Of a DNA stretch of 64,000 nucleotides, positions 10,246 through 61,263 are shown in pieces. This stretch comes from Acutalibacteraceae bacterium (GTDB taxonomy: Bacteria; Bacillota; Clostridia; Oscillospirales; Acutalibacteraceae). Positions within the stretch are counted from its first letter, which is position 1, and every line of letters begins with the position of its first letter. The notes below the pieces were generated by a model that was given only the letters and a program-made list of their open reading frames with translations, searched no databases and was not told where the DNA came from. The position numbers and the translations under genes are program-made. The stretch is taken from assembly GCA_045538015.1 (NCBI GenBank), contig JAZSQO010000008.1:1759-65758 (forward strand), given 5' to 3'.

Positions 10246-10274
10246 TTGCAATTGTCGGAAAGCTGTGGTAGAAT
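10246..10274 (+). promoter_or_regulatory. Candidate promoter of rpmB
   Basis: TTGCAA, 17 nt, TAGAAT, with an extended -10 TG. Confidence 0.5.
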
Positions 10275-10322
10275 ACGACTGTTGCACGAAAACAAGCTTA
10301 TGCAAAAAGGAGGTACAGTAAA

Positions 10323-10511: not shown

Positions 10512-10538
10512 TCATTCGTTGAAAACTTCTGACGATCA

Positions 10539-10566
10539 AGCCCGCCTCTGTGAGGCGGGCTTTTTG
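10539..10566 (+). terminator. Intrinsic terminator of rpmB
   Basis: agcccgcctc-tgtg-aggcgggct followed by TTTTT. Confidence 0.8.
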
Positions 10567-43700: not shown

Positions 43701-44422
43701 TTGGCAATGACGCCGATCTCCACGGCAACATCGCCGGCCATGGTGTAGTAATAGCCGCCGTGGGTCAGCTCGATGACGAAGATGGAGAAGGAGTCGGTGC
43801 TGACCGACACGCTGTCTCCGCTGACGACGGGAGCCATTTCCTCCGAGGAGGTCACGGCGTCGTTGACATGGTAGACGCTCACATCGGTGTTGGCGGGAAT
43901 GTCAGCCAGAGAGAAGCGCACGGACACGTTGCCGTAGGCGCTGTCGGGCTGGATCTCCTCGCCGTTCAGCATTACCTTGATATCAAAGGAATAGCAGTCG
44001 GAGTCCTTGTCGGCGCCGATGAGCTTTTCCACCTTTCCGCCGACAGCGGCGCCCAGAGCGGTGACGCTCAGCTCAGCACCGGCGGGGAACACGCCCACGG
44101 GAGCGGAAACGGTGACGGTGACACCGTTTGCCGCAGCCGACTGGGCAAAGACGGGATGGCTCTCGGTGATGTTCACGTCGGAGCCGGAGGTCGCGGCGTC
44201 AGAGCCGGAGACGCTCAGGTCGGAGAAGGACACCGGAGCCTCGCCGGTCTCCTCGGCGGAAAGGATATCCGAGCCGGACACCGCCGGGCCTGCCTCCGCC
44301 CGGGCGGAGATGAAGGGCAGCGTGGAGGCCGGGATGACCATGAACAGCATGGCCGCCATCAGCACCACCGCGGTGACCCTTCGGGCTTGTCTCTTCAGCA
44401 TTTCTGCCTTGGATCTACTCAT
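37727..44422 (-). CDS. Giant (2231 aa) cell-wall-anchored surface protein: two LRR blocks + >10 Listeria-Bacteroides (Flg_new) repeats + xPKTG sorting signal
   Basis: A signal peptide is present. LRRs read e.g. 'LTELHCAENDLYDLDLSGCSDLTILSCAGNNL'. Repeats read 'YTITFDTNGGTPVAPITQAFGTDVTAPADPTKEGYAFDGWDKEIPATMPAEDMTITAKW'. The C-terminus is 'VPKTGD', a TM helix and 'RRRGR'. Confidence 0.9.
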   Translation of the reverse strand: MSRSKAEMLKRQARRVTAVVLMAAMLFMVIPASTLPFISARAEAGPAVSGSDILSAEETGEAPVSFSDLSVSGSDAATSGSDVNITESHPVFAQSAAANGVTVTVSAPVGVFPAGAELSVTALGAAVGGKVEKLIGADKDSDCYSFDIKVMLNGEEIQPDSAYGNVSVRFSLADIPANTDVSVYHVNDAVTSSEEMAPVVSGDSVSVSTDSFSIFVIELTHGGYYYTMAGDVAVEIGVIAKALGITGTVTAAGSSDESCLAVELGEDGYLYAVPMSAFVGEVILVIEIDGTTDYEVSVATLDVELERVAWFDYNAPGIGQPGGIMVRNSDGGTEDLYIDCGDGNIVPYTDDFVVAGKRVDIYAEGTGLSSIDARGNGYVSAIDCEGCGLNELLVSGASMLTNVNCADNDLFELDTTGCDSLGMLNCKNNDIFILDVSHLPSLYYLDCGSNPLADLNVSTNTSLMTLLCSNTNISYLDLSHMSNLNLAILANCPELIGLELGSHPILTCLSCPGGALSELDLSGCPALTELHCAENDLYDLDLSGCSDLTILSCAGNNLSDYDLDLSDCSDLTTLSCDRNDLTTLDLSACTALKNLTASGNRISSVTLGSDPAQMEEIDLSENCLTFLTLPVPGADTNFNYKDQAPIVLPASIEPGVALETLAPYDTDGTEFGWFEVGALEGDEENLYSEDAVVTFTEEDVGRAYMAGMANDKFGDTVIFTTDVTVVSDDEYCTVSFDANGGEGTMLDQVMVSGFEYILHANEFTRDYYRFEGWSTDKDSKEVAYADGAAVKDIFTSGQDTMTLYAVWAIDLLPQAVITVASPGAAFDLGVFGGSESSPVHTDFYVDFGNGEIQVGNYFNSAVTLGSTVTIYAEPGREMSQLDLSNSTGAVSVDVTAADNLHWMYITNCAIDQLVMDNPELSGLSIESCGIDSIDLTGCPNIYALYLTDNNLTSIDLSSVPDLEFVTLNDNQLTELDISGNPKLLIVEANDNLLSEIDTSACPKLDALTVNNNQISSFDFSANPDMCALHCSGNQLTSLDFSSNPDMMSLSCENNFLGFSSLLDPNKTFDNPYYYVDQDYAPQGEYKIQETVAATSILDLSSEAEPFGSPTTYKWYYADGTAVEPEYITENGGKFSFGPELDGEEIYCAMTNPLYPDLTLVTTKTQVYADSFEYLVAFDANGGEGTMDAQIFTYNVEQALSANTFTREGHTFTGWEDAEGNTYTDKQTVKNLYTDNIGTVTLYAQWEAETFTVTWQNEDGTELEVDTDVPYGTVPTYDGATPAKPSDDAKDYTFVGWTPIISEVTGDVTYTAKYTDDTREYTVTWKNGDEIIYSEDLLFGTVPAYDSAKYGVPAKESTAAEDYTFAGWDPEINIVTGTVTYAAQFTATPREYTVLWKNHDGSTLATDTVAYGKTPAYTGVTPVKDDDAQYTYTFTGWDPAIEAVTGDAVYTAQFGDKEAKKYTITFDTNGGTPVAPITQAFGTDVTAPADPTKEGYAFDGWDKEIPATMPAEDMTITAKWDANEYTITFETNGGSPVDPITQDYGTDVTAPNDPAKEGYTFVGWDKEIPATMPAQDMIITAQWEINEYTITFDTQGGTEIAPITQDYGTDVTAPNAPAKEGYTFAGWDEEIPATMPAEDMTITAQWKINEYTITFDTQGGTTIAPITQDYGTDVTAPADPTKEGYTFAGWDKEIPATMPAKNMIITAQWDPNQYTITFDTKGGSAVDPITQDFGTDVTAPTDPTKTGYTFKGWDKEIPSTMPAENVEVKAQWKANTYTVTFNADGGEVNPASKTVVYDSAYGTLPVPTKDGYEFVCWKLDDEAITADSIVRNAEDVTLTAQWRSNERAITFDTDGGSAIAPIVQDIGTAVTAPADPTKEGYTFTGWDKELPAVMPAEDMTVTAQWEANEYTVSFDANGGEGTMADQSFTYDEAQNLTANAFTKEGCEFTGWKDADGNEYTDGQSVKNLTAENGGKVTLTAQWETLPTYKVTVTATAGGTVTPSQVEAVEGEDVTFTLTPDNDRYEITSVKVNGTAVDVSKLPASGKGKALTVSDISADTAVEVTFAAEPIVGTASVNMKNGQTFYVNEDITFTAIGSWPDSATTYINGDQYYVPLNWHHADPSGDWGGKDDPSFTYSATFKQAATGKYTLKVEFQRYTHNGTTWEADGIVTIAREYTVTTRSAGTGGEVPKTGDTTMTSGTGVTIAVNAILLSIVFVVLYLRRRGRTVVFYE

Positions 44423-45407: not shown

Positions 45408-48400
45408 TTATTTTTTGCGTCTGATAATGAAGACCATTACCAGGATCACAACCACCGACAGAGCGGCGGCGATGATGGCGGGGGCGACGCTGCGTTCCGC
45501 TTCCTCACCGGTATCCGGGCCCATGGGGCCCTTGTTGGTGGCGGTGACGGAAAGCACCCATCCGCTCTGCTTGTTCTCGGCTCCGGGAGTGCCGGAGGAA
45601 CCGGCGGCGTTGTTGGAAACAGAGGTGGCGTCCTGAGCCGAGGTGGGGATCTGATAGGCGGCCTCGCCCGACTTGGTCTGCCAGACCTCGCCCACGCCGA
45701 GGTTGCCAACGGTGAAGTACTTATCCAGCAGGTCGTCGTAGATCTTCAGATCCTTGATGACGCAGTTGCCGGTGTTGGTCACCACGATGGTGTAGGTGAC
45801 GGTTTCGCCCGGCTTGGCGCTGGACACGTTACCAACCTTGGTCACGGTGTAGGAAGGACGGTCAGCGGCCAGAACCTGCACGAGGTTCTCGGCGGTCCTG
45901 GGCTCGGCATTCTCCGGGTCGGCGGTGGCCCTATTGGTGTGGTAGGTTCCGGCCTGAGCGGCGGCGGGCACCACGCAGGTGACCTCTACCTCAGCGGTCT
46001 TTTCCGGCTCCAGAGAAGGAATGGTGGTTATCACATCGCCGGCCTTGACGGCAGTGCCGTTGTACACAACATCCAGAGCGTCGGTGACGGCGATGTTGGT
46101 CAGGGTCACGTTGCCGGTGTTGGCCACAACGATGGTGTAGGTGACGGTGTCGCCCGGCTTGGCGGCGGAAACGCTGGAGAGCTTTCTGACGATGAAGTCG
46201 GGAGTCTCAACCACCGGCTCGTATACCTTGACGGTGTCGTCGTCCTGATCGGTCACGCCGTTCTCCGCGGTGGCGGTGGCGGTGTTGACCAGCTCGGTTC
46301 CGACGGCGGCGTCGGCGGGCACGGTGTAGGTCACCTTGAAGCGCTGGCTGGCGCCGGGAGCGAGGCTCTCGATCACAGCGAAGGCTTCGTTGGCTTCATA
46401 TTCTTCGCCCTCATAGGTGACGGCGAAGATGTCGCTGACGCTGATCTTCTCCAGAGCGATGTCGCCGGTGTTGGCCACGGTGATGTAGAAGTCCACGGGC
46501 TTGCCTGCCTCAACATTGGGCATGGCGGCGGTCTTGGTGACCTCCAGACCGGGGATCTTCACGGTCACATCGGCCTCCGACTGCACCGGCTCGGTCTGGT
46601 TGGAGTCGGCCACCACCACATTGGTGATGACGTCGCCCGACTTGGCGTCGGCGGGAACGGTGACGGTGTAAACGAGCTGCAGAACAGCGCCGCCCACTTC
46701 CATCTTCTCCACGGTCACGGTGCCGTTTTCGGCCACGGCCGCGCCGGTGGTGCCGGCGGGCAGAGAAGCGGGAAGGGTCCATGTGCCGCCGGTGATCTTA
46801 TCCTCGATGACGATGCCGGTCAGGTCGGTGTTGCCGGTGTTAGTCACATCGATGATGTAACGCACGGTGTCGCCCGGCTTGGCCTCGGTCACGTTGGCGG
46901 ACTTGATAACGGTCAGCTCGCTGTCCTCGAGAACGGTGACATCCACGTCGTCCTCGTCCAGCTTGGTGCCCTCCTTGTCCAGCAGCTCGGCCACATTGGT
47001 CAGCTTGCCGGCGGCGGTGCCCATGGGAATGGTGTAAACACTTTCGATTACGGGAATGATGGTGGATTCACCGGCCCGGAGGCTGGCGATCTTCCATTCC
47101 TTGCCCAGAAGCTCATCCTTGACGGTGAGGTCGGTGTAGTTGACATCGCCGTTGTTCTCCACAAGGATGGTGTAGCTCACAAGGTCGCCGGGATAATACT
47201 CGGTGCCTCCGGCCACGTTCTTGGTGATGGTGATGTCCTCGTTGAGAGGCACCTCCACGGGAGTGACATTGGCGGTATCCTGACGGGTGATGGGAGTCTC
47301 CTCGCCCTTGGGAGTGCCCACGGCCACAGCGGTGTTGGTGATGACCGGATTGGCCTCAACATCGTAGCCCGCGGGAATGGTGTAGGTAACGGCGGGGATC
47401 ACATAGGTCTTGCCCGGCTCCAGAGCGGAAATGCTCCACTCGCCGTCCAGCATCTCGTCGGTGACGGTGATGTTCTCCAGAAGGGTGTTGCCGGTGTTGG
47501 TGACGGAGATGGTGTAGTAGACATCGCCGCCCACGACCTGAGTTTCGGGCACAGCGGACTTTTCGATGACCATGTCGCTGACGCGCTCCACGGTGAAGTC
47601 GGCGGTGGCTTCCTGATCCTCAAGGTCGGTCACGGTGCCGCCGGCATTGATGTAGTCGGCGTCAACGGTGACGGTGTTGACAAATTCCTCGCCGCCCTTG
47701 GCGTTGGCGGGAACCTCATAGCTGAGGCGGTCGGCGCGCCAGCTCTGGCCAACGGCCAGATCGGTGGGGCAGCTGAGAGCCCAGGCGGAGGTGGGAATGA
47801 CGGTCAAGGCGTCGCCCATCTGGCGGACAAACTCATCGGTCAGGGTCACGTTGCACAGAGGCACGTTGCCGGTGTTGGTGACGGTGATCCAGAAGTATAC
47901 GGTCTCGCCCGGCTCGGCGGTGGCCTTGCCGTTCTCCTCGCCGGAGGTGATGACCTCCTTGGTCACGGTGAAGGCGGGAGCGGGAGTGATGGGAGTCTCG
48001 TCCACGACCACGTCCACATCGTCGCTGACGGTGAGCTTCTCGCCGGTGGCGGGATCGGTCACGGTCTCAGCGGTGGCGATGTTTCTGATGGTGCTGCCGG
48101 CTGCGGCAGTGTTGGGAACGGTGACGGTGTAGGTAAACTGAGCCACGCCGCCCATGGGGAAGACGGTCAGCACGGGATGGCTGCCGCTCATGCTCACGGT
48201 GACGCCGGCGTCGGTGGTGGCGTTGATCCATCTGCCGCCGGAGATGGAGTCGGTGACATCCACATCGGTCAGCAGGCAGTTGCCGGTGTTGGTGACCACG
48301 ATGGTGTAGACCACGCTGTCGCCGGCCTTGGGATGGGCGTTATTGACCGTCTTGACGATGCTCATGCCGGGATCGCGCTCCACGGTGAGGATGGCGTTTG

Positions 48401-51400
48401 CCTCCTTGGGAACCACATCGCCCTTGGTGCCGTCCTCCTTGACATACTTGGAGGTGACGGTGACGGTGTTGTCGTACTTCTCGCCCGCGGGAGCGCCGGA
48501 GGCAACGGTGTAAGGCATGGGCTGGCTGATCCACGCTCCGCCCACGGGCAGAGTCTCGAAGCAGTCAAGATCCCAGCCGGCGGTGGACAGCTGAGTGCTG
48601 ACCGAGCCGTTTACCTTGCTGAATACGTCGGTCAGGTTCACATCGCACAGAGGCACGTTGCCGGTGTTGGTGACGATGATCTGGAAGTATTCGGTCTGGC
48701 CGGGCTTGGCGTAGGCGTTGGTAACCGTCTTGGTCACGGTGATCTCGGGAGCGATGGGCTCAACCACTCTGACAGTCTCCTCGTCGGTGGCAGGCTCGGT
48801 GCTGGGCGAGGTGGAGGTGGCGGTGACGGTGTTGTCAATGTCGGTGCCCTCGGCGGTGCCGTCGGGAACCGTGTAGGTGTAGAGGAGGATGACCTTTTCG
48901 CCCGCTCCCAGCTCGGGGATGGTGGGGTTGGAGGTCAGGTTGGTGACATTGTGGGTGTTGGTGCCGGACACCGACCATGTTCCGCCGGTGAGGGCCTCGG
49001 TGACCACAACGCCGTTGAGCTTGCAGTTGCCGGTGTTCTCCACAACGACGGTGTAGACTACGGTCTGACCGGCGCTGACGGTGGTGCGGCTGGCGTCCTT
49101 GGTGACGGACAGGGCAGGCTGAGCGGGAACCACGGTCTCGGCGCTGTCGGTGACCTCGTCAAGGGCGGAGGAAGGATCGTCGGGATCCTCATTCGCGTTG
49201 ACGGTGACAACATTGCGGAAGGTGGTGTCGCCCAGAGTGTCCTCGGGGATGGTGTAGTAGAGCAGGCCGCTCTCCCAGCTTTCGCCGGCCTCGAGAGTCT
49301 CGGGGCAGTCCAGCTGCCAGCCGGTGTTGGTGATCTCGGTATCGCTGGTGCCGAAGAGTCTGGAGAATTCATCCTCAAGGGCAACATTGTACAGAGGCAC
49401 ATTGCCGGTGTTGGTGACGGTGATCCAGAAACTGACCGTCTGTCCGGCCTTGGCGGTGGGAGTGCTGACTTCCTTGTTGACGGCGATGGAGGGAGCGGGA
49501 TCGTCCGGACGGGCGGTCAGCTCCACATCGGCGTCGTCGTGGACGGTGGGAGTGGCGGGATCGTCGCAGGAGGCGTAGGCGATGTTCTTGATGGTGTCGC
49601 CCGCGTTTCCGGCAAGATGATCGAGGGTGTAGGTGAGCAGAACCTGATCACCCGGCTCCATGAGGGAGATGACGGGGCTGCCGCCGGTGATGGCGACATT
49701 GAAGCCGTCGGCCTCGGCCGCGTCGGTATTCCAGATGCCTCCGGAGATGGAGTCGGTGACCGAAACGTTGTTCAGGTCGCAGTTGCCCACGTTGCTGACA
49801 ACGATGGTGTAGACCACGCTGCTGCCCTGCATGACAGTGTCGGCGCTGGCGGTCTTTTCGATGGCCAGTCTGGGATCATCGGGGATGATGACCTCGGCGT
49901 CGTCCTGTCTGAGGTAGGTGGTGGGATCCTCGGGATCAAAGGTGGTGCCCTCGGTGTCGAGGTAGGCGTTGTTGAGCACGTCGCCCTTCATGCCGGCCTC
50001 GGTGGGCACGGAAACGGTCTTTGTCCAGATGCCGCCGGCCTCGAGACGGCCAACCTGCCAGCCGTCGGGATAGGCGATGGCAGAGGGCACGCCGATGACA
50101 TCGGCGATGTCGTAGACCACAAGGTCGTCGATGGCCACGCCGCTGTTGTTGGTGACCACGATGACGAACTCGGCGTTCTCACCGGGCTTGATGGGGCTGT
50201 TGAGAGCCACCTTGCTCAGGGAGACCTGATTGTGGGGATCGTTGCCCACGGTGGCGATGACATCGTCGCTGCGGTTGCCGGTCTGGTCGGAGGTGACGGT
50301 GACGGTGTTCTTGTAGACGGTGTTCTGGCCGGCATCGTCGGGAACCTCAAAGGGCATGGAGCCGGAAGAGGTGCTCCAGCTTTCGCCGGGAGCCAGCTCG
50401 TCGTCCATGGCGGCCAGCTCGGTCAGCCACGCGGCGGGCGTGGTCTGCTGAACGCCGTTGATGGTGAACACATCGCTCACCAGAGCCACTCCGGTCAGAG
50501 GAGTGGAGCCGATGTTGGTGACGGTGACGGTGTATTCGATGGTGTCGCCCTGATCGGGGACGTTGTTGGAGACGGTCTTGGTGACCATCAGCTCAGCCGA
50601 CTGACCGATGGTGACGGTCTCGTTGTCGGTGTCGGTCAGCTCGGTGCCGTCGGGAGCCTTGGCGGCGACCACGGCGGTGTTCAGATAGCTCTCGCCGGCA
50701 AGGGCGGAGGAGGGGATCTTGTACTGATAGGTCAGCTTGACCGGGGTGCCCACGGGCAGGTCGCCGATGGTGTGGGAGCCGGTGGTGGTGGAACCCACCT
50801 GAGTCCAGCCGGTTCTGGAAGAGGCGACGGTATTCTCGTCAAAGACCTTGTCGTCGGATACCACAACATCGCTCAGAGCCACGTTGCCGGTGTTCTTCAC
50901 GGTGAGGGTGTAGGTGACGGTTTCGCCGGCATAGGCGGTGGTCTTGCTGACTTCCTTCTTGATGTCGATGGCGGGAACGATATTCTCGTTCTTCACGACC
51001 ACGCTGGCGTCGTCCTGACGGGTGATAGGCTCATGGGTGCCGGTCACGGTGGAGGGCACGGTGCCGGTGGCGGTGGCCACGTTGGTCAGCACCGAGGCGT
51101 TGGCGGCGTCATCGGCGATGACGGCGTCAACGGTGACAGTGGTTCTGCCGCCGGCGGCAAGGGTGAAGGTGCCGTCGTAATTCATGGGCAGGGAAGCGCT
51201 GTAGCTCAGGCTGCCGGTAAGCTCCTGACCGGCGAACACATCCTCAAGGGAAACGTTCAGCGGGCAGTTGCCGGTGTTGATAACGGTGATGGCGAAGGTC
51301 ACGGTGTCGCCGGGCTCCACAACGGGAATGGCGGCAGTGGAAGAGTCGCCGTTCACGGCGGTGACCTTCTTGTCGATGGTCATGTCGGGGTTGATGGGAT

Positions 51401-54400
51401 CGGTGAGGATGACATCAACCGAGCTGGTGATGGGGCTGGGATCGTAATCCTTGGTCTGGCCATCAACGGGATCCACATAGGTGGCGTAGGTGTTCAGGGT
51501 GTTGGTGGCGCGGTTGTTGACATAGGTCACATCCACGGGGAAGGTGACCGGCAGGCGGTCAATGACCCAGTCCTCGCCGGGCTGGATGGTGAAGCTGGAC
51601 AGAGCGGCAGCCACCCAGTCAAGGGCGGTGATCTGCGCCGGATTCATCACATCCTCCAGACGGACGGTGACGGGCACGTTGCCCGAGTTGGTGATGGTGA
51701 AGCGATAGTAAGCGGTCTGACCCTTTTCAACGGTGACCGGCTCGCGGCCGTAGGTGCCGGGATTGCCGGAGGCGGAAACCTCCTTGACGGCGGTGATGGA
51801 CGGCTTTGCGTTGATGGTGTACCTGGCGGTATCGCTGGACACGACCTCCTTGTCCTTGTGGACGCAGGAGGCGGTGGCGGTATTGACATTGTCGGCCGAA
51901 GCGGAGGCATCGGCGGGAACAACGTAGGTCAGGGGACCGACGACCTGGCTTTCGCCGGGCTGGAGGGAGGAAATGGTGGTGATAACGCTGCCGGCGGCAT
52001 AGGTGCTGCCGCTGTAGATAACAGCGTGGTCATCGGTGACTTCGATATTCTCAAGGAGAGCGTCGCCGCTGTTTTCCACCTCGATGAAGAAGAAGATGGA
52101 TTTGCCCGGATCCTGAGCCACCGACTCGCCGGCCTGACTGAGGTCGTTGGTGAGGGCGGCGGTCTTGTTTACGGTCAGGGCGGGGTTGTTGGCCACAACG
52201 GGCACTTCCTCGGTATCCTCGGCGGTGACCTCCTCGTCGGTGCCGGGAACCACGGCGGTGGCGGTGGCGTTGTTGACCGCCTTGCCCGCGGCAAGGTCGG
52301 ACTCCTGCACGGTGTACTGGAAGGTCAGCTCAGCGGAGCTGCCGCCGGCAAGAGAAGAAATAACGGTGTTGCTGGTGATCCATCTGCCGTTGGCGGAGTC
52401 GGCCAGAGAGTCGTCCACGCGGACATTCTCAAGGGTCTGCTCGCCGAGGTTGGTGACCACGATCTTGTAGGTGATGGTCTCGCCTACGCTGTAGTTTTCT
52501 CTGGGATCGACAACGCTCTTCTCCACCTTGAGAGGGTTGGTGTAGAGGGTGTCGGAAACGGTCTCGCCCTCGTTGACGTAGGCGAAGTTGGTGATCTCGG
52601 AAATATGCTCGCCGTTGTTGTCGGTGGTGACAACCTGAGCGTCAAAGGTGAGATACAGGGTGGAGTTGGCGGGAACATTCACCGCGCCGTCAAGGGAGGC
52701 GGCGGTGACATCAATGCCGGTGGTGACGTCGGACTGAACGCCGCCGGAGACCACATAGCACTGCATGGTATCGGGGAGGAACTGCACGCCGGCAGGAGCG
52801 GTGTCCTGAATGGTGATGTTCTCCGAGGGCAGGGTGCTGGGGTTCTCGATGGCGATGGTGTAGCGGATCTTGTCGCCCACTTCAACAACGCTGCCGTTGA
52901 GGTCGACATTGCCGTTCTCGTCCAGCTTGCTGGCGCTCTTGGAGTAGGAAAGGTCGGCGAAGGCAAGGTTGGTGATGAGCTTGAGGTTGGAGTCTCTGGT
53001 GCTGCGCTCCATGTAGTAGATGGTCAGGTCGTGGTAGCCGGGAGCCAGCTTGTAGCCGCTGCCGGTGCTGACGAACATCTCGCTCAGCTTCTTGTTGACC
53101 AGAGTCTCGTTGTTGTAGTAGTCGGTGCCTTCCGCGGCGAGCAGGTTGGCCTTGGCTACGTCATACATACTTCTGGCGTTGCCGGAGGTGCTGCCGGAGT
53201 TGAACACGGTGGTGGTGTTGTCGCCCAGATCCACCACGCCGGTGATGGCCTCGTGAACGCCGCCGATGTCCAGAATGAGGACGCCGTCGATGAACAGCCA
53301 GAAGTCGTCGTCTCCGGTGAAGCGGAAGGTCTCGTCGCTGTTTGCGGATACGAGGAACTGGGCGTCAAACTCCATGCCGAAGTGGTAGTTGTGGCGGATA
53401 CCCTCGGCGTCCAGGTCGGGAGCCACGCCGCACATGGGGAAGTAGCCGTTCTCGCCCTCGGTGCCGTAGCCGTCGGCACAGTCGGAAGCCTGATACTGCT
53501 TGTCGCTGTCAAAGACATAGTAGCCTATGTAGGCGTCGTTGCTGTAGTTGTCAGCGTCGGTGATCTTGTAGAGGGTGATGTCCGAGTCGATGGCATTCTC
53601 CCGGAACATCTTCACATCGTCGTTGAGATGTTCGGCGGTGATGCGCTCGGCGTTGCTGGGGTTGACGTGAGCGTTGTTGTTGCTCAGGTTGTAGTATTCC
53701 ACCTCGTCGGTGAAGATGGGGCGGCCGTTCTCGTCAAGAGCGCCGGCGACCAGACCGGGACGCACGCCCTGCTGAGCCTCGTTGGAGCCCCAGGTGAACT
53801 CGAAGAAGCGGGCGGTGTCCAGGTCACGGAAGCTGTAGTCGTACAGCTTGATGGGAACGGTGACCGATTCGCCCTGAGGATACTCATAGGGGCGCAGGGT
53901 GACCTTGTCGGCCCAGATGGTATAGTTGGAGCCGTAGATGGCCTTGTTGACATTATCGTCGCTGTTGGCGACGGCGTCGGAGGCAAGAGTGATCTGCAGG
54001 CAGCCGTTGGCGTCGGCCTCGGCGTAGACATAGCAGGTATGGAAACCGGTGACCACGCCCGCACGGGTGTCGTTGCCGTTGCCCGAGGGATAGGAGGCGA
54101 AGGAACCCAGGTTGCTGCTGATGTAATAAGTGCCTTCCTTGTCGGCTTCGGCGCCGGGAGCGGCGGCGGTGAACACGGTGTTGCCCTTGCCCAGAGTCAT
54201 GGCCTCAACGCCCACACGATAGGTCTGGCCGGGAGTGAGTCCGCTGATGATCTGGGTGACATAGGAGCCGCTGGTTCCGGGGATCATCCGGAGCAGGTCG
54301 GCGCCGCCGTCGGTGGGAGTATATTTGTCGCCGCTGGAATAACTGTTTACATAGCTGTCGGGAATGGTGATACCCGAATAGGAGAAGGGCTCGGTGATGA

Positions 54401-55367
54401 TGTCGGCGTCGCCGCTGAAATCCCAGCCGAAGCCGTCGCCGGTGACATCGCTGTTCTCTTCAAAGCTGAAGTTGAAGTCGTCACCGCTCTCGCCGGTAAT
54501 CTCGCCGCCCAGCTTGCCCAGATAGGACTTGGAACCGTTGGCTCCGTTGGCGTCGGGAGTGCTGGGAGTGGTGATGGAGCTGGCCAGAGCCTTGTTGGTC
54601 TCCACGTCATAGGAGGGCACGACTATCTCGCCCGGCTCCTCGGGATCTTCAGGATCCTCGGGATCGCCGGAGCCGGAACCGGAACCGGTGCCGGTTCCGC
54701 CGGAGCCGTCGGTGGTGGTGACGGCGATGCTGTCAAGGTTGAAGGTGGGACAATACTCGGCGATCATGTGCAGACCCACATAGAGAGTCTGACCGTCGCT
54801 GAGGGTGGCAGAGGCGCTGCGGCTGTGCTCGGCAGTCGCCTGACCGAAGGTGGCCGACTCGTTCAGAGCCGACTCGGCGGTGAGGCTGTCGCCGGCGTAG
54901 GCGAACAGCTTGGTGGTGCTGTTCTGCACCGAGTTGGCGCTCCAGTTGGTGGCAATGGCGCGGGCAACAGCGTCAACGGTGTAGGTTCCCGCGTCGAGGC
55001 CGGGAATGGCCAGATAATACAGGAACTCGGTGCTGTTGGTACCGCCGGCAGACTTGCTGTTGCTGCCGTTGGTGGTGAACTGGCCGGTGAGGCCGCTGGG
55101 CGCGGAGGCGGTGTAGGTGCCCTTGTTGCCCTGATTCGCGGTGTTGTAGCCGCTGGAGGTGGTGACGAACTTGCCGTCGTTGAGGATCCGCCAGCTGAGA
55201 CCGGACAGATCCACCTCGGTGGCGGCGCTGACCTTCACCACTCCGCCCAGCAGGTCAAGAGAGGTGTTGAACAGCAGAACCAGCGCCAGCAGCACGCAGG
55301 CCGCCACGCGCAGAACTCTGCTGCCCGGGTACAGGTTTTTCGGATGTTCAGTGTTGTTCTTTTTCAT
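45408..55367 (-). CDS. Giant (3319 aa) surface protein: CBM-like domains + fibro-slime/PA14-like domain + about 20 DUF11 repeats + xPDTG sorting-like signal
   Basis: The RBS is aaggag..aggaga. A signal peptide is present. The fibro-slime block reads '[26 protein letters not shown]'. The DUF11 signature '[TI]xVxNTGN' recurs about 20 times. The C-terminus is 'GPDTGEE', a TM helix and 'RRKK'. Confidence 0.9.
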   Translation of the reverse strand: [3319 protein letters not shown]

Positions 55368-56962: not shown

Positions 56963-57649
56963 TCAGCTTTTGCCGGACTGCTGCTCCTTCATTCTCTGCC
57001 AGTTGTAAAAGCCGTAAAGGTCGTTGGCCAGAAAGGCCGCGAAGCACAGCACTATGGGCAGATACGCCATGTCCTTGGCCGCGGCAATGACCCACAGCAC
57101 GATGAGCACCACGTCGTTGGCCGCGTAGGCAAGGGCGTAAAAGGGACTGCGCAGCCACGTCAGATATGAGGCGGCAAAGCTGGTGGCAACGGACAGCGTG
57201 CTCACTCCGAGGCTGGCGTTGCCCAGCGCCCTGAGGATGAAGTAAAAGGCGGCGGTCACAAGCACCGTCAGCGCGGCCATTACCGCCAGAGCTCTGCCCG
57301 AGGGCGTGGCCACCTCCACCGTTTTTGTTCCCTTGTAGGGATGTCTTGCCCACGAGATCACCGCCGCGGCGGCGATGGGTGCGGTCATGCACAGATAGGT
57401 TATCATCTCGCCGTAGTAGCGCTGGGAGAAGGAGATCATTCCGTAGAAGACGGCGAACACCACCGTGAGCACCTGCCCCAGCACATAGCCCTTGGCCACG
57501 AAGATAAGCGCCGTGACGCCGACCAGCGAGGCGATCAGGCTCAGCACATCCTTCCCGCCCGAGGCAAGAAAGCCGGCGATGATGACCGCCGCCGAAGCCA
57601 TATACAGCCACCGCTCCGGCCGCGTCAGATCAGAAAAGGGATTTTTCAT
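56963..57649 (-). CDS. pnuC: Nicotinamide riboside transporter PnuC
   Basis: About 7 TM helices are present. The C-terminus 'FAAFLANDLYGFYNWQR' is typical of the PnuC family. Confidence 0.8.
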   Translation of the reverse strand: MKNPFSDLTRPERWLYMASAAVIIAGFLASGGKDVLSLIASLVGVTALIFVAKGYVLGQVLTVVFAVFYGMISFSQRYYGEMITYLCMTAPIAAAAVISWARHPYKGTKTVEVATPSGRALAVMAALTVLVTAAFYFILRALGNASLGVSTLSVATSFAASYLTWLRSPFYALAYAANDVVLIVLWVIAAAKDMAYLPIVLCFAAFLANDLYGFYNWQRMKEQQSGKS

Positions 57650-57663
57650 TTTTCATCCTCCAT

Positions 57664-57721
57664 AAAAAAACAGCACCCGCCGCGCGCATCTTCTAAGACC
57701 TAACGACGCGCGCACGAATGC
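57664..57721 (-). terminator. Leader terminator/attenuator immediately upstream of the pnuC RBS
   Basis: On the minus strand the stem gcattcgt(g)cgcgcg / cgcgcggcgggtgc has a ~20-nt loop. It is followed by T7, then 'atggagg' and the ATG. Confidence 0.55.
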
Positions 57722-57768
57722 TTCCGCATATCGCTGCCCGGTGGCAGCACATATTTATTTGCAGGGAA

Positions 57769-57798
57769 AGTATAACAGAGATGAGGGGCGGGTGTCAA
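57769..57798 (-). promoter_or_regulatory. Candidate pnuC promoter
   Basis: Minus strand reads TTGACA, 18 nt, TATACT. Confidence 0.5.
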
Positions 57799-58110
57799 GA
57801 GGAGGGGGACAATTGATATGCTGAGGGCATTATCGGTATACTACTGTTAATTAGTAGTACATAAAAAGGCAGAGCGGCAGGGAGCATATCCTTGCCGCTC
57901 TGTTTACATTGCCCCGGCAGTTTCGAACCACCGAAATTGATTAGTCGCTCTGAGCCCGCGAGGGAGGCTTTATCAGAAACTATCAGACACTGAATAGGAC
58001 TGCCGCGAGAGAATAATTCCCGACAGCTCCTTTTTTGCGCCCTCGGGCAAAAAGGTTGAAATATCGTGATGATCATTGTATAATGTAGTAAAAATCACAA
58101 CGGAGGGGTA

Positions 58111-61026
58111 ATGATGTCAGAAAACACCGTAATGAAAAGGGTTCCCATGGACGTTCCGTTTGCGGCGGAGGATACGGCGCGATATATTTTCGTCAGCTAC
58201 GCCCACGACGACAGCAAGATGGTTTTCCCGATCATTGAAAAGCTGTACGAAATGGGCTGGCATGTCTGGTACGACCAGGGCATCGAGATCAACACCAACT
58301 ATCACAACGTAATCGCCGACCACGTTCTGGGCTGCGAAGTTGTGCTGCTGTTTGTTTCAAAGGTCTCGGTTACCCGCGATTATGTTACCGATACGGAGGT
58401 AGGCTTCGCGCTGGATAACAAAAAGCGGGTTGTGTTCTGCTTTCTTGATGAATCGGAGCTGCCCAGCGGAATCCGGTCCCGCGTCCGTGATACGGAGCGC
58501 CACCCCCGCACCACCCCCGATGGGCTTTGCAAAGTCCTTGAGAGCATAAAAGAGCTGACAAGAGTACCTAAGCGCAAGGCGAAGGGCATCAGGATAAACG
58601 CGCAGGAGAAAGGCGACCTTGCCGTTTCCAACGAAAGCGACGAATACAAATCGGTAGCCATGGACAACGGCGGCGTTCGCCTGACGGAATACAAAGGAAA
58701 CGCCGAGAATGTGGTGGTTCCCGCCCGGTGGAAGGGTCGTCCTGTGGTGGAGTTGAGGATGACTTTTTGGAACAATAAACGCGTAAAATCCGTCACGATA
58801 CCGGACAGCGTGACAAGCATTGGCACTAGTGTATTCTACGGATGCAGCAGCCTTACCGCCATCACGATACCGGACAGCGTCACGAGCATTTGCGGTAGTG
58901 CATTCCGAGGCTGCAGAAGCCTTACCGCCATCACGATACCGGACAGCGTGACGAGCATTGGCGATTATGCATTCCGAGGCTGCAGCAGCCTTACCGTCAT
59001 TACGATACCGGACAGCGTGACGAGCATTGGCGATTCGGCATTTTACGATTGCAGCAGCCTTACGGTTGAATGCGAAGGGAATTCTTATGCGTATCGATAC
59101 ACGAAAAAAGAAAAAATCCCCGTTCGCACAGTAAAGCTTGAAAAAACGCTTAAAAAAAAGAAAAAAAACACAAAACGTACCGCATCAGGCAAGATGCCAT
59201 TTGTCAGCGATAAAGAAGCGCCATTCGTATACTGTAGCTACGCCCACGAAAACGCAGATATCGTTTTCCCGATAATGAAAAGGCTCCATGACGATGGATT
59301 CAATATCCGGTATGATGAACTTGACCGCGACCCGTACGAATGCGCCGGCGAGATAAGGGACTGTGCGTATTTCCTTGCTTTCCTTACGCCTGCGTATATT
59401 GACTCTGCAATAAGTGAACTGAGACATTCCTTGCCGCAGGGAAGAATACTTTATTGGCTGGAAGCCTGCAAGCTGCCCAATGACATGGAAATGAATCAAG
59501 GCTGTATTCAGGGGCTTTGCGGCTGGGAACGCACCTATGAGGATATATTAACCACTATTGAAGCCACCCTCGATAAAGGCGGCTGCCGTGGTCGGCGTAC
59601 CGCTGTTATCCCTGATTTTGAATATCGGGCTGACGACACGGGCATAACGCTTTTGAAATATACCGGCAAGAGTGAAAATGTTGTTATTAAGTCGGAGTAT
59701 TCCGGCTTGCCTGTGACGAGCATTGGTTGGTCTGCATTCTCCGGCTGCAGCAGCCTTACCGCCATCACGATACCGGACAGCGTGACGAGCATTGGCGAGT
59801 GGGCATTCTCCGACTGCAGCAGCCTTACCGCCATCACGATACCGGACAGCGTGACGAGTATTGGCGATTCGGCGTTCCGGTGCTGCACCTCGCTGACGCA
59901 GATCACCATCCCCGACAGCGTGACGAGTATTGGCGATTCGGCGTTCGCACGATGCACTGGTTTAATATCCATAAACATATCTGATGGAAACAAACAATAC
60001 AAGTCAGTAAATGGGGTTTTGTATTCCATCGATGGCACAGCAATAATTGCATGCCCCGGTGGGCGGTACGGAAATTTCACCATCCCTGACGGCGTGACAA
60101 GTATTGGCTATTCGGCGTTCGACGGCTGCGCCTCGCTGACTCAGATCAATATCCCTGACGGCGTGACAAGTATTGGCTATTCGGCGTTCTCCGACTGCAC
60201 CTCGCTGACGCAGATCACCATCCCAGACAGTGTGACGAGTATTGGCGATTGGGCGTTTAACGGCTGCACCTCGCTGACACAGATCACCATCCCCGACGGC
60301 GTGACCGGTATTGGAAATTGGGCGTTCGACCGCTGCACCTCGCTGACGCAGATCACGATCCCCGACAGCGTGACAAGTATTGGCAATTCGGCGTTCGAAC
60401 GCTGCACCTCGCTGACGCAGATCACCATCCCCGACAGCGTGACAGTTATTGGCGATTCGGCGTTCCGCGGCTGCACCTCGCTGACGCAGATCACCATCCC
60501 CGACAGCGTGACAAGTATTGGCGATTATGCGTTCTACGGCTGTACCGCTCTGACGCAGATTACCATCCCCTACGGCGTGACAAGTATTGGCTATGAGGCA
60601 TTCTACGGCTGCACCGCTCTGACGCAGATCACCATCCCCGACAGTGTGACAAGCATTGGCAAGTGGGCATTCGATGGTTGCGATGACCTTACCGTCTACT
60701 GCTCCGAAAACTCCCACGCTTGGCAGTATTGCGAGGAGAACAAAATCAAGCACAAGCCCCTTGCGGCTCAGGCTCCCACTGAAACCGCAATCTCCGAAGA
60801 AATCCCCGCCGCGCTTCCCGAAACAGCTCCGGCGGCTTGCCCGGAAACCGTGGCTGAACCCTCGGCAGAGATTCCTGCGGACACCCCGGCAAAGTCCGCC
60901 CCCACACCCCGCAAAAAATCCCCCGCCCGCTGGCTTGTTCCCCTCCTCGTCCTCCTCGCCCTTGCCGCAGCTGCCGGACTGCAGCTCTCCGGGCTGTTGG
61001 ATATCCTCGGACTTCTCGGGCTGTAA
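58111..61026 (+). CDS. TIR-LRR-TIR-LRR protein with C-terminal transmembrane anchor (971 aa)
   Basis: The two TIR-like domains are 'RYIFVSYAHDDSKMVFPIIEKLYEMGWHVWYDQ' and 'PFVYCSYAHENADIVFPIMKRLHDDGFNIRYDE'. BspA-type 23-aa LRRs read 'LTQITIPDSVTSIGDSAFxxCTS' (4 + about 12 copies). The C-terminus is a Pro/Ala/Glu linker plus 'WLVPLLVLLALAAAAGLQL'. RBS is ggagggg. Confidence 0.88.
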   Translation: MMSENTVMKRVPMDVPFAAEDTARYIFVSYAHDDSKMVFPIIEKLYEMGWHVWYDQGIEINTNYHNVIADHVLGCEVVLLFVSKVSVTRDYVTDTEVGFALDNKKRVVFCFLDESELPSGIRSRVRDTERHPRTTPDGLCKVLESIKELTRVPKRKAKGIRINAQEKGDLAVSNESDEYKSVAMDNGGVRLTEYKGNAENVVVPARWKGRPVVELRMTFWNNKRVKSVTIPDSVTSIGTSVFYGCSSLTAITIPDSVTSICGSAFRGCRSLTAITIPDSVTSIGDYAFRGCSSLTVITIPDSVTSIGDSAFYDCSSLTVECEGNSYAYRYTKKEKIPVRTVKLEKTLKKKKKNTKRTASGKMPFVSDKEAPFVYCSYAHENADIVFPIMKRLHDDGFNIRYDELDRDPYECAGEIRDCAYFLAFLTPAYIDSAISELRHSLPQGRILYWLEACKLPNDMEMNQGCIQGLCGWERTYEDILTTIEATLDKGGCRGRRTAVIPDFEYRADDTGITLLKYTGKSENVVIKSEYSGLPVTSIGWSAFSGCSSLTAITIPDSVTSIGEWAFSDCSSLTAITIPDSVTSIGDSAFRCCTSLTQITIPDSVTSIGDSAFARCTGLISINISDGNKQYKSVNGVLYSIDGTAIIACPGGRYGNFTIPDGVTSIGYSAFDGCASLTQINIPDGVTSIGYSAFSDCTSLTQITIPDSVTSIGDWAFNGCTSLTQITIPDGVTGIGNWAFDRCTSLTQITIPDSVTSIGNSAFERCTSLTQITIPDSVTVIGDSAFRGCTSLTQITIPDSVTSIGDYAFYGCTALTQITIPYGVTSIGYEAFYGCTALTQITIPDSVTSIGKWAFDGCDDLTVYCSENSHAWQYCEENKIKHKPLAAQAPTETAISEEIPAALPETAPAACPETVAEPSAEIPADTPAKSAPTPRKKSPARWLVPLLVLLALAAAAGLQLSGLLDILGLLGL

Positions 61027-61061
61027 TATCATAATTATCCCCACAACACAATAAAAGACGA

Positions 61062-61108
61062 GGGCAGCCGCGGAAATCGTATCCTGCGGCTGCCCTTTCA
61101 TATTTCTT
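61062..61108 (+). terminator. Intrinsic terminator of the TIR-LRR gene
   Basis: gggcagccgc / gcggctgccc stem followed by a T-rich run. Confidence 0.75.
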
Positions 61109-61176: not shown

Positions 61177-61263
61177 TGGTGCCGGTGACCGGGATCGAAC
61201 CGGTACGCTGTTGCCAGCACGGGATTTTAAGTCCCGGGCGTCTGCCAGTTCCGCCACACCGGC
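61177..61263 (-). tRNA. tRNA-Leu (anticodon UAA), CCA encoded
   Basis: The minus strand reads gccggtgtggcggaactggcagacgcccgggaCTTAAAAtcccgtgctggcaacagcgtaccggttcgatcccggtcaccggcacca. It has a 7-bp acceptor stem, a long variable arm and a GGTTCGATCC T-arm. Confidence 0.95.

What the first reader, a model, noticed from the sequence alone, without database searches (positions are those of the whole stretch)
58111..61026. Two complete TIR-LRR modules fused in one tail-anchored protein, sitting against tRNA-Leu
Seen in sequence:
- The 971-aa ORF is two head-to-tail copies of one architecture.
- Module 1 is a TIR-like domain (aa ~22-135), a linker, 'VRLTEYKGNAENVVVP', four 23-aa BspA-type LRRs and the cap 'LTVECEGNSYAYRY'.
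- Module 2 is a TIR-like domain (aa ~375-480), 'ITLLKYTGKSENVVIK', about 12 LRRs and the cap 'LTVYCSENSHAWQY'.
- The protein ends in a Pro/Ala/Glu-rich spacer and a single C-terminal TM helix. There is no N-terminal signal peptide.
- Both TIRs carry a Glu ('VTDTEVGFAL', 'DSAISELRHS') where TIR NADases have the catalytic Glu. This is a by-eye alignment to the SxWxxxExxxA pattern.
- G+C and third-position usage look lower than in flanking genes.
- The gene abuts tRNA-Leu(UAA), a classic island boundary.

Established knowledge: bacterial TIR domains act as NAD+-consuming or signal-generating modules in antiphage systems (Thoeris, TIR-STING, SPARTA and others). LRR solenoids are the sensor part of TLR/NLR immune receptors.

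Inference: this could be a single-polypeptide sensor (LRR) plus effector (TIR) tethered to the membrane. No ThsA-like, STING, Argonaute or other partner effector gene is adjacent. It therefore does not match the described TIR systems I know.
Basis: partly seen in the sequence, partly recalled or inferred. Interest (0 to 1): 0.8.

Follow-up and report, generated by a model that had tools for sequence, protein, structure and literature searches.

The report
Membrane-tethered double TIR–LRR protein
A gut Clostridia gene encodes a cytoplasmic, membrane-anchored protein with two enzyme-like TIR domains, each followed by a leucine-rich-repeat domain, and it belongs to a widespread but apparently undescribed bacterial family that looks like a self-contained immune sensor, though no function has been tested.

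Summary
ORF 58111-61026 (+) encodes TIR–LRR_5–TIR–LRR_5, a Pro/Ala/Glu spacer and one C-terminal TM helix, with no signal peptide. It has its own promoter and terminator.

- **TIR domains:** TIR1 models confidently as a TIR fold. Its best structural matches are NADase TIRs (SPARTA, SARM1, AbTir). E96 aligns with their catalytic Glu, and E436 of TIR2 aligns with E96. Both TIRs are under purifying selection (dN/dS 0.13-0.17).
- **Family:** The gene is not a one-off. N-terminal TIR + BspA-type LRR proteins lacking export signals are common in gut and rumen Clostridia, often as several paralogues per genome. The double-module, tail-anchored form recurs in at least five 50%-identity clusters and shares a conserved C-terminal motif.
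- **Partners:** No partner gene is conserved next to family members.
- **Composition:** GC3 is atypical (0.64 versus about 0.8 in neighbours).
- **tRNA-Leu:** Adjacency is real but shows no island hallmarks and is not seen at the twelve closest homologue loci scanned. The neighbouring PnuC gene is also not conserved.

Best reading: a self-contained cytoplasmic LRR sensor plus TIR NADase effector, probably for phage or mobile-element conflict. NADase activity, ligand and phenotype are all untested. I rate it a new variant of a known kind.

The parts
58056..58084 (+). Sigma-70-type promoter TTGAAA-17-TATAAT
   Evidence: 11 of 12 consensus matches. It lies 27 nt upstream of the ATG.
58102..58106 (+). 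Ribosome-binding site GGAGG
   Evidence: Read from the sequence. It is 4 nt before ATG 58111 and 7 nt before ATG 58114. The public protein P0001 starts at 58114.
58150..58563 (+). TIR domain 1 (aa 14-151), putative catalytic Glu E96
   Evidence: Pfam TIR_2 49.6 bits, E=7e-13. AF2 model pLDDT 89. Foldseek top hits are SPARTA TIR-APAZ, SARM1, AbTir and TIR-STING. E96 aligns with the catalytic Glu of AbTir, SARM1 and Cat1. dN/dS is 0.17.
58564..58791 (+). Linker 1 and LRR N-terminal cap (aa 152-227, 'VRLTEYKGNAENVVVP')
   Evidence: Low pLDDT at aa 153-176, then beta strands at 179-215. No Pfam domain, so there is no room for a STAND NTPase.
58792..59130 (+). LRR_5 solenoid 1: four 23-aa BspA-type repeats plus C-cap 'LTVECEGNSYAYRY' (aa 228-340)
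   Evidence: Pfam LRR_5. Repeat register. pLDDT is 84-91.
59131..59187 (+). Lys-rich inter-module linker (aa 341-359)
   Evidence: pLDDT is below 50 at aa 345-369.
59188..59565 (+). TIR domain 2 (aa 360-485), Glu E436, shortened BB-loop region
   Evidence: Pfam TIR_2 25.4 bits alone, E=2.2e-5. It aligns with TIR1 at E=2e-15, with E436 opposite E96. dN/dS is 0.13. It is poorly modelled, pLDDT 30-55.
59566..59763 (+). Linker 2 and LRR N-cap (aa 486-551, 'ITLLKYTGKSENVVIK')
   Evidence: Alignment with linker 1 and beta strands at 503-538.
59764..60759 (+). LRR_5 solenoid 2: eleven regular 23-aa repeats, an irregular insert (aa ~621-678) and C-cap 'LTVYCSENSHAWQY' (aa 552-883)
   Evidence: Pfam LRR_5. 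Repeat table: variability is concentrated at repeat positions 12, 13, 16 and 17 (IGxxAFxxC). DNA repeat family D1.
60760..60918 (+). Pro/Ala/Glu-rich spacer (aa 884-936)
   Evidence: pLDDT is below 50 at aa 886-944. It is poorly conserved among homologues.
60919..61026 (+). C-terminal anchor: basic patch PRKKSPAR, TM helix WLVPLLVLLALAAAAGLQL, conserved end SGLLDILGLLGL, stop codon
   Evidence: This is the only Kyte-Doolittle TM segment, aa 939-957. It is nearly invariant among homologues that are only 55-86% identical overall. In my sample the motif occurs only in proteins of this architecture.
61057..61099 (+). Intrinsic terminator hairpin followed by a U-rich tract
   Evidence: Folding energy -29.4 kcal/mol, z = -5.1, and 0 of 200 shuffles fold as well.
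61177..61263 (-). tRNA-Leu(UAA): a neighbour, not shown to be functionally linked
   Evidence: ARAGORN and Rfam at 53.3 bits. No att-like repeat. No tRNA in the 12 closest homologue loci scanned.

Best explanation
The gene encodes a self-contained, cytoplasmic, tail-anchored sensor-effector. Two BspA-type LRR solenoids act as ligand-binding sensors inside the cell. Two TIR domains, both keeping the catalytic-position Glu, act as NAD+-cleaving effectors.

In the resting state the two TIRs are kept apart by the intervening LRR arc and by tethering to the inner face of the membrane. Binding of a multivalent or membrane-proximal ligand, most plausibly a phage or mobile-element protein, would cluster the TIRs head to tail within one chain or between neighbouring chains. 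That would form the composite active site, cleave NAD+, and cause growth arrest or abortive infection.

**Shown here:** the architecture; the cytoplasmic topology (by exclusion); the TIR fold; the Glu alignment; purifying selection on both TIRs; family-wide conservation of the Glu; the lack of a conserved partner gene; the paralogue-rich, compositionally atypical nature of the gene.

**Inferred only:** NADase activity, ligand-induced clustering, the nature of the ligand, and the defence role.
For: **TIR domains**
- TIR_2 hits.
- TIR1 model has pLDDT 89. Its nearest solved folds are NADase TIRs: SPARTA, SARM1, AbTir, TIR-STING and ThsB.
- The family profile aligns its invariant Glu with the catalytic Glu of AbTir, SARM1/TIR-1 and Cat1.
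- The Glu is kept in 88% of 396 TIR domains of the family, including 172 of the non-first TIRs.
- dN/dS is 0.17 for TIR1 and 0.13 for TIR2.

**Topology**
- No signal peptide, and no TM between TIR and LRR.
- Most relatives are soluble TIR-LRR_5 proteins.

**Sensor surface**
- LRR variability is confined to four positions per repeat, on a scaffold whose codons differ synonymously.

**Genomic behaviour**
- No conserved neighbour in 28 family loci. The commonest neighbours are further LRR_5 and TIR_2 genes, with scattered AbiE, SspH, Cas6, dGTPase and MazF-type genes.
- Several paralogues occur per MAG.
- Monocistronic, with its own promoter and terminator.
- Atypical GC3.

**Precedents**
- SpbK is a single-gene TIR NADase in Bacillus. 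It is switched on when the phage portal clusters its TIRs into head-to-tail assemblies (PMC12847820).
- A TM tether restrains the TirC NADase (PMC13142454).
Against: - No biochemical or phage data exist for any member.
- PADLOC gives only weak, partial hits: PDC-S66 at 5.5e-9 over about 30 residues, and ThsB at 1e-4.
- Defence genes near family members are sporadic. I could not compute a proper enrichment statistic.
- TIR2 falls just under Pfam's threshold on its own and has a shortened BB-loop region. It may be non-catalytic.
- The Trp usually found four residues before the catalytic Glu is absent.
- A conserved Glu also occurs in some non-enzymatic TIRs (PMC7075850).
- BspA-type LRRs are classically extracellular adhesin modules.
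- No homologue with this architecture was found on phages or plasmids. That finding is neutral.
Confidence: 0.45

Rival explanations
1. It is a signal-generating TIR, like ThsB. On sensing through the LRRs it makes a cADPR-isomer or related nucleotide, which activates an effector encoded elsewhere in the genome.
For: TIR folds nearest to signal-producing TIRs (AbTir, ThsB) also appear among the matches. There are weak ThsB HMM hits.
Against: No ThsA, SLOG, Macro or SIR2 gene is adjacent in the window. None recurs among the 130 neighbours of 28 family loci. Defence signalling pairs are normally co-encoded.
Confidence: 0.12
2. It is a host- or surface-directed BspA-like adhesin or immunomodulator. 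The LRRs bind host or bacterial surfaces, and the TIRs mimic host TIR adaptors (Tcp-like). The protein would reach the outside by lysis, vesicles or an unrecognised export route.
For: LRR_5/BspA repeats are typical of surface proteins in gut anaerobes. The top LRR-driven homologues carry Fn3, dockerin, Big and cell-wall domains. NCBIfam gives partial hits to the adhesin HupY/LrrG and to PARCEL surface repeats. The organism is a gut or rumen commensal.
Against: There is no signal peptide, lipobox, sortase motif or TM between the domains. The basic patch precedes the TM, indicating N-in topology. Most relatives have no hydrophobic segment at all. A 936-aa N-terminal domain cannot be translocated by a C-terminal anchor (established knowledge of membrane insertion). 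The catalytic-type Glu is conserved across the family.
Confidence: 0.1
3. It is a non-enzymatic scaffold. The TIRs serve only as oligomerisation modules and the LRRs as protein-protein interaction modules, in some membrane-associated housekeeping or signalling complex unrelated to conflict.
For: TIR domains are primarily assembly domains in animals, and conservation of the Glu does not always track with activity (PMC7075850). Neighbours in this window are housekeeping genes.
Against: The gene is rare and sits in different contexts in different genomes. Each close homologue is a singleton cluster. Composition is atypical. Paralogues are expanded and repeat number varies. dS is mosaic along the gene. 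All of this is unlike a housekeeping factor.
Confidence: 0.15
4. It is an NAD+/nicotinamide-riboside physiology module that works with the divergently transcribed PnuC transporter next door.
For: PnuC (NMN_transporter, E=1.9e-27) lies 460 bp upstream on the opposite strand. TIRs cleave NAD+.
Against: None of the 83 related loci fetched up to that point contains a PnuC, transglutaminase-like or lipoprotein homologue next to the TIR-LRR gene. The two genes differ strongly in GC3, 0.81 versus 0.64. PnuC has its own promoter and leader.
Confidence: 0.03

Closest known systems
SpbK (Bacillus subtilis single-gene TIR abortive-infection protein)
   Same: Both are Firmicutes proteins that would combine sensing and a TIR NADase effector in one polypeptide with no partner gene. 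SpbK is activated by ligand-driven TIR clustering into head-to-tail assemblies (PMC12847820).
   Different: As far as I know, SpbK has one TIR and no LRR or membrane anchor. Its trigger, the phage portal YonE, is known. Here there are two TIRs, two LRR_5 solenoids and a tail anchor, and the trigger is unknown. Homology beyond the TIR fold was not tested.
Thoeris ThsB / AbTir-type bacterial TIR enzymes
   Same: TIR fold and catalytic-position Glu. Weak ThsB HMM similarity.
   Different: No ThsA-type effector is adjacent or recurrent. ThsB proteins are small single-TIR proteins without LRRs.
Plant TIR-NLRs and bacterial STAND/NLR-like defence proteins (Avs, bNACHT, TIR-NLR)
   Same: The logic is the same: an N-terminal TIR effector plus a C-terminal repeat sensor in a cytoplasmic protein.
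   Different: There is no NB-ARC, NACHT or STAND NTPase. The linkers are only about 50-75 aa and have no Pfam hit. The LRRs are BspA-type LRR_5, not plant or RI-type. The module is duplicated and the protein is membrane-tethered.
Animal Toll-like receptors
   Same: The same two domain types, LRR and TIR, occur in one membrane protein.
   Different: TLRs have an extracellular LRR, a TM helix and a cytoplasmic TIR. Here everything is on the cytoplasmic side, the order is TIR then LRR, and the TM helix is at the extreme C-terminus. The nearest TIR relatives, P0122-P0125, do have TIR-TM-LRR_4, which is an inverted-order TLR-like topology.
BspA-like LRR_5 surface proteins of oral and gut anaerobes
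   Same: The same 23-aa repeat family, N-cap and C-cap.
   Different: Those proteins carry signal peptides and wall or surface-anchoring domains. This one has none, and it carries TIRs.
Dictyostelium TirC (TM-tethered TIR NADase of bacterial origin)
   Same: A single TM helix tethers a cytoplasmic, filament-forming TIR NADase. The tether restrains auto-activation (PMC13142454).
   Different: TirC has an N-terminal helix, one TIR and no LRR, and it is eukaryotic.

Membership tests
TIR domain superfamily (Pfam TIR_2, PF13676) | Significant match to the family HMM | tested here: met
   The whole protein scores 68 bits against a 28-bit cutoff, with two stretches. TIR1 alone scores 49.6 bits. TIR2 alone scores 25.4 bits, E=2.2e-5, just under the cutoff, but it aligns with TIR1 at E=2e-15.
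TIR domain superfamily | Flavodoxin-like TIR fold | tested here: met
   This holds for TIR1. The AF2 model has pLDDT 89, and 46 PDB matches at E<=1e-3 are mostly TIR domains, with some DNPH1/BcmB nucleoside deoxyribosyltransferase-like folds among them. TIR2 was not confidently modelled.
Enzymatic (NADase) TIRs | Catalytic Glu in the alpha-C region | tested here: met
   E96 aligns with the catalytic Glu of AbTir, SARM1/TIR-1 and Cat1. E436 aligns with E96. The Glu is kept in 88% of 396 family TIRs.
Enzymatic (NADase) TIRs | NAD+ cleavage activity | not testable with these tools
   This needs a biochemical assay.
Thoeris | ThsB TIR gene co-encoded with a ThsA (SIR2/SLOG or TM/Macro) effector | tested here: not met
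   The adjacent genes are a lipoprotein, PnuC, a transglutaminase-like protein and PurL. No such partner recurs among the 130 neighbours of family members. ThsB HMM hits reach only E=1e-4.
SPARTA / short pAgo systems | TIR fused to APAZ, with an adjacent short Argonaute | tested here: not met
   There is no APAZ or Piwi domain in the protein or its neighbours. The similarity is limited to the TIR fold.
TIR-STING / TIR-SAVED effectors (CBASS, type III CRISPR) | A STING or SAVED nucleotide-sensor domain and an adjacent cyclase or CRISPR locus | tested here: not met
   There is no such Pfam domain. The PADLOC SAVED_TIR hit has E=0.006 and covers the TIR only.
STAND / NLR-like defence proteins (Avs, bNACHT, TIR-NLR) | A central P-loop STAND NTPase between effector and repeat sensor | tested here: not met
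   There is no NTPase hit. The TIR-to-LRR linkers are too short, about 50-75 aa.
Toll-like receptor architecture | LRR ectodomain, then a TM helix, then a cytoplasmic TIR | tested here: not met
   There is no signal peptide and no hydrophobic segment between LRR and TIR. The single TM lies at aa 939-957.
BspA-like surface LRR proteins | LRR_5 repeats | tested here: met
   LRR_5 at E=2.9e-144.
BspA-like surface LRR proteins | An export signal or surface-anchoring domain | tested here: not met
   The N-terminus MMSENTVMKRVPMDVPFAAEDTARY has no hydrophobic core, and there is no LPXTG-type signal. DeepTMHMM and SignalP were not available, so this rests on a Kyte-Doolittle scan and inspection.
Tail-anchored membrane proteins | A single TM helix within about 35 residues of the C-terminus, no N-terminal signal, and basic residues on the cytoplasmic side | tested here: met
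   The TM helix is at aa 939-957 of 971 and is preceded by PRKKSPAR. It is conserved in homologues. Membrane insertion itself is not testable here.
tRNA-linked genomic island | An integrase and a direct repeat of the tRNA 3' end at the far boundary | tested here: not met
   There is no meaningful repeat and no integrase among the neighbours. The 12 closest homologue loci scanned lack tRNAs. Only the atypical GC3 suggests foreign origin.

The most novel reading that the evidence does not exclude
TIR–LRR_5 proteins of gut Clostridia form a previously unrecognised class of STAND-less, single-polypeptide intracellular immune receptors. BspA-type LRRs, assumed to be surface adhesin modules, would here act as cytoplasmic pathogen sensors. 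They would switch on TIR NADase activity directly by induced proximity. In the double-module, tail-anchored subgroup, two sensor-effector units would be fixed at the inner membrane face, possibly to survey phage entry or assembly. This would be a bacterial counterpart of the LRR+TIR logic of TLRs and plant TNLs, achieved without a nucleotide switch.
Probability: 0.35. Interest if true: 0.75.

Novelty: new variant of a known kind. Interest (0 to 1): 0.58.

Why it matters
If these proteins are active, they would link LRR sensing directly to a TIR enzyme in bacteria without a STAND ATPase. That pairing of LRR sensor and TIR output defines animal TLRs and plant TNLs.

It would change how thousands of 'BspA-like leucine-rich repeat proteins' annotated in gut and rumen Clostridia are read, since some would be intracellular receptors rather than adhesins. 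It would also give a tractable system for asking two questions: how ligand binding to a solenoid triggers TIR clustering, and why some members are duplicated and membrane-tethered.

The family is abundant. The TIR profile finds 1,489 50%-identity clusters at E<=1e-30. I found no paper describing a bacterial TIR–LRR_5 family in the five literature searches I ran.

Tried and rejected
- **Exact-sequence contig look-ups** for the window protein and for P0001 found nothing.
- **Presence/absence at this locus could not be tested.**
  - A metagenome scan with the transglutaminase-like neighbour found nothing.
  - A metagenome scan with PurL found only relatives at 58% identity or less, with no shared neighbours.
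- **tRNA-island idea:** no att-like repeat.
- **PnuC functional link:** rejected, because the adjacency is not conserved.
- **Mobile-element carriage:** the viral-contig scan gave no relatives. Phage and plasmid tblastn gave only LRR-only or TIR-only partial matches.
- **C-terminal tail profile search:** returned only one 55-aa fragment, so it is unknown whether the tail occurs on other protein types.
- **Rfam:** nothing but the tRNA in the flanks.
- **Full-length AF2 model with four sequences:** too poor in the TIRs to judge TIR1-TIR2 contacts.
- **PDB sequence search with single TIRs:** too weak to place the Glu. A 37-sequence profile solved this.
- **One repeat-finding script** failed on a wrong regular expression and was rerun.
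- **Cluster look-up** gave no names or accessions.


Full report
**1. The observation**

The ORF at 58111-61026 (+) is real and encodes 971 aa. A public protein identical over 970 aa (P0001, NCBI, one contig of 66.9 kb) starts at the second ATG, 58114. The GGAGG at 58102-58106 is better spaced for that start.

Pfam finds LRR_5 (E=2.9e-144) and TIR_2 (E=1.4e-18, two stretches). Scanned separately, TIR1 scores 49.6 bits (E=7e-13). TIR2 scores 25.4 bits (E=2.2e-5), just below the 28-bit gathering score.

The two modules (TIR + linker + LRR N-cap) align end to end at 25% identity, E=2e-15. The head-to-tail duplication is therefore real and old.

A repeat scan finds four regular 23-aa repeats in module 1 and eleven in module 2. 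Module 2 also has an irregular insert at about aa 621-678.

A Kyte-Doolittle scan finds one hydrophobic segment, aa 939-957, and none at the N-terminus.

The gene is monocistronic:
- It has a near-consensus promoter, TTGAAA-17-TATAAT, at 58056-58084.
- It has a strong terminator hairpin at 61057-61099 (-29.4 kcal/mol, z=-5.1).

GC is 0.538 and GC3 0.639, against GC3 of 0.78-0.86 for genuine genes in the window. TIR2 is the most deviant part, with GC3 of 0.50.

tRNA-Leu(UAA) lies at 61177-61263 on the minus strand.

**2. The TIR domains**

I built a 37-sequence alignment of TIR1 with diverse relatives. It gave a confident AF2 model (pLDDT 89, pTM 0.83).

Foldseek against the PDB returns 46 hits at E<=1e-3, mostly TIR domains, with some DNPH1/BcmB nucleoside deoxyribosyltransferase-like folds among them. 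The list is led by SPARTA TIR-APAZ, SARM1, AbTir, TIR-STING, ThsB and Cat1.

A profile of the same alignment matches Cat1, AbTir and SARM1/TIR-1 at E=1e-9 to 1e-11. It places the family's invariant Glu on their catalytic Glu: WDEL in Cat1, NYEL in AbTir, HKEL in TIR-1/SARM1. In the window protein this residue is E96. E436 of TIR2 falls in the same column.

Further points on conservation and selection:
- Both residues are invariant in the four full-length homologues.
- Across 396 TIR domains from family members, the column is Glu in 88%. That is 176 of 184 first TIRs and 172 of the later TIRs.
- Against the closest orthologue (L011), dN/dS is 0.17 for TIR1 and 0.13 for TIR2. TIR2 is therefore not a decaying copy.

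Caveats:
- TIR2 has a shortened region after beta-B, the BB loop.
- TIR2 was not modelled confidently.
- The Trp that usually sits four residues before the Glu is missing in this subfamily.
- Conservation of the Glu does not guarantee enzyme activity (PMC7075850).

**3. Topology**

There is no signal peptide, lipobox or sortase signal, and no hydrophobic segment between any TIR and LRR. All four globular domains must therefore lie on one side of the membrane.

The anchor is preceded by PRKKSPAR and followed by only about 12 residues. By the positive-inside rule this indicates an N-in, tail-anchored protein. This step is inference from sequence, because no dedicated topology predictor was available.

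The anchor and its end motif (QL.G[LI].DILG[LW]L) are nearly invariant among homologues that are otherwise 55-86% identical. In my sample the motif occurs only in proteins of this architecture.

**4. The family**

Full-length homologues with the same TIR-LRR-TIR-LRR-TM order exist:
- P0002, 839 aa
- P0004, 1020 aa
- P0058, 796 aa

The number of LRRs differs between them.

An exhaustive HMMER search with a TIR profile found 54,926 representative proteins at E<=1e-3 and 1,489 at E<=1e-30. I classified the top 150 with my own TIR HMM, an LRR regular expression and a hydropathy scan:
- Multi-TIR proteins dominate.
- 22 of the 150 combine TIRs with LRR_5.
- The double-module, tail-anchored form recurs in at least five 50%-identity clusters: P0058, P0136, P0165, P0175 and P0217.

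A scan of species-representative genomes found 507 relatives. They come overwhelmingly from gut and rumen Clostridia MAGs (Acutalibacteraceae, Oscillospiraceae, Lachnospiraceae). Several copies occur per MAG and some are in tandem arrays.

Most members are 480-700 aa: an N-terminal TIR plus LRR_5, with no hydrophobic segment at all. LRR_5 is therefore used intracellularly across this family.

The nearest TIR relatives outside the family (P0122-P0125) are TIR-TM-LRR_4 proteins, with a receptor-like topology.

Within the LRRs, amino-acid variability is confined to repeat positions 12, 13, 16 and 17 (IGxxAFxxC). The conserved scaffold positions differ by synonymous codons, and mean nucleotide identity between repeats is 74%. 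This is the pattern expected for a maintained solenoid with a variable binding face.

**5. Genomic context**

In the window the neighbours are:
- a lipoprotein-like ORF
- a divergently transcribed PnuC nicotinamide-riboside/NMN transporter
- tRNA-Leu
- a transglutaminase-like membrane protein
- PurL

None of these protein-coding neighbours has a homologue in any of the 83 related loci fetched up to that point. No tRNA lies in the 12 closest homologue loci scanned. There is no att-like repeat of the tRNA.

So the tRNA and PnuC adjacencies appear incidental. Only the atypical composition hints at foreign origin.

I also scanned 130 ORFs flanking 28 family loci. No partner family recurs. The commonest neighbours are more LRR_5 genes (6) and TIR_2 genes (4). 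Known defence genes (AbiEi/Eii, SspH, Cas6, dGTPase, BnzB, mad3/8, MazF-like) appear once or twice each. This is suggestive but not a statistic.

No phage, plasmid or viral-contig record carries the TIR+LRR module.

Each close homologue is a singleton among about 15 billion proteins. Contexts differ between homologues. dS along the gene is very uneven, from 0.04 in the linkers to 0.41 in TIR2, which suggests recombination.

**6. Mechanism**

The best-supported reading is a self-contained cytoplasmic sensor (LRR) plus effector (TIR NADase). It would be activated by ligand-induced TIR clustering, most likely in conflict with phages or other mobile elements.

Two precedents support this:
- SpbK of B. 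subtilis is a single-gene TIR NADase. It is activated when the phage portal clusters its TIRs into head-to-tail assemblies (PMC12847820).
- A TM tether restrains the auto-activating NADase TirC (PMC13142454).

The two-TIR arrangement could pre-position the asymmetric TIR pair that forms the composite active site. The tail anchor could both restrain spontaneous clustering and place the sensor at the membrane. These steps are inference.

Rivals, all less well supported, are set out in the rival-explanations section:
- a Thoeris-like signalling TIR with an unlinked effector
- an exported adhesin or immunomodulator
- a non-enzymatic scaffold
- a PnuC-linked NAD+ role

**7. Comparison with known systems**

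The protein works most like single-gene TIR abortive-infection proteins (SpbK). Conceptually it also resembles TIR-NLRs without the NTPase.

It fails the membership tests for Thoeris, SPARTA, TIR-STING/SAVED, STAND/NLR, TLR topology and exported BspA proteins.

PADLOC's best hit, PDC-S66, covers only about 30 residues.

Five literature searches found no description of bacterial TIR–LRR_5 proteins.

**8. Verdict**

The architecture is a new variant of a known kind, the TIR-based single-protein sensor-effector, and belongs to a sizeable family for which I found no description.

Function is unproven. I put confidence in the defence/NADase mechanism at about 0.45 and interest at about 0.58.

Noticed in passing
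window 56963-57649 (-) and leader 57650-57798: A PnuC-type NMN/nicotinamide-riboside transporter is transcribed divergently from the TIR gene. Its leader has a near-consensus minus-strand promoter at 57798-57769. A long GC-rich hairpin plus U-run sits immediately before the RBS, which looks like an attenuator or riboswitch expression platform. No Rfam family matches, including the NAD+ riboswitches.
   Followed up: partly
window 57860-57905: An orphan strong hairpin (CAGAGCGGCA...TGCCGCUCUG) with a U-tract on the minus strand lies in the 460-bp intergenic region. Folding energy is -32 kcal/mol, z=-3.2. It is not attached to any obvious gene.
   Followed up: partly
P0122-P0125 (metagenomic proteins, nearest TIR relatives): These proteins of about 330-375 aa have an N-terminal TIR, one TM helix and a C-terminal region that scores as LRR_4 in P0122 (P0125 has only TIR hits). 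That is a receptor-like topology with cytoplasmic TIR and extracellular LRR, the domain order reversed relative to TLRs.
   Followed up: partly
P0133, P0135, P0160, P0173, P0185, P0196, P0225, P0241 (representative-library hits): Giant proteins (1,600-2,300 aa) carry five to seven tandem TIR domains followed by a TM segment and a long C-terminal region. Multi-TIR proteins dominate the top hits of this TIR subfamily.
   Followed up: no
window 58111-61026 versus L011: Synonymous divergence between the window gene and its closest orthologue is strongly mosaic. dS is about 0.04-0.07 in the linkers and spacer, 0.12 in TIR1 and 0.41 in TIR2. This suggests recombination or domain swapping among alleles or paralogues.
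   Followed up: partly
L004 13212-14381; L002/L006 ~8800-10540; P0126: LRR_5-only proteins without a TIR sit next to some TIR-LRR genes. One type shares the same linker and N-cap sequence and has no signal peptide. Another is a multi-TM LRR_5 protein. They could be decoys, partners or decay products.
   Followed up: no
L001 5346-5909; L002 7158-7724; L003 1850-2416: A DUF6199 gene lies a few kb upstream of the TIR-LRR gene in two otherwise different homologue contexts. It is not present next to the window gene.
   Followed up: no
window 31225-32019 (-): A DDE_3 transposase ORF has markedly low GC (0.44, GC3 0.49) in a 59% GC window. It is probably an insertion sequence.
   Followed up: partly
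window 37727-44422 (-) and 45408-55367 (-): Two giant surface proteins lie here. One is 2,231 aa with Flg_new/List_Bact repeats and LRR_4. The other is 3,319 aa with 18 DUF7507 and 16 DUF11 repeats, a PA14 domain and a sortase-like C-terminal signal. They contrast with the signal-less TIR-LRR protein.
   Followed up: partly
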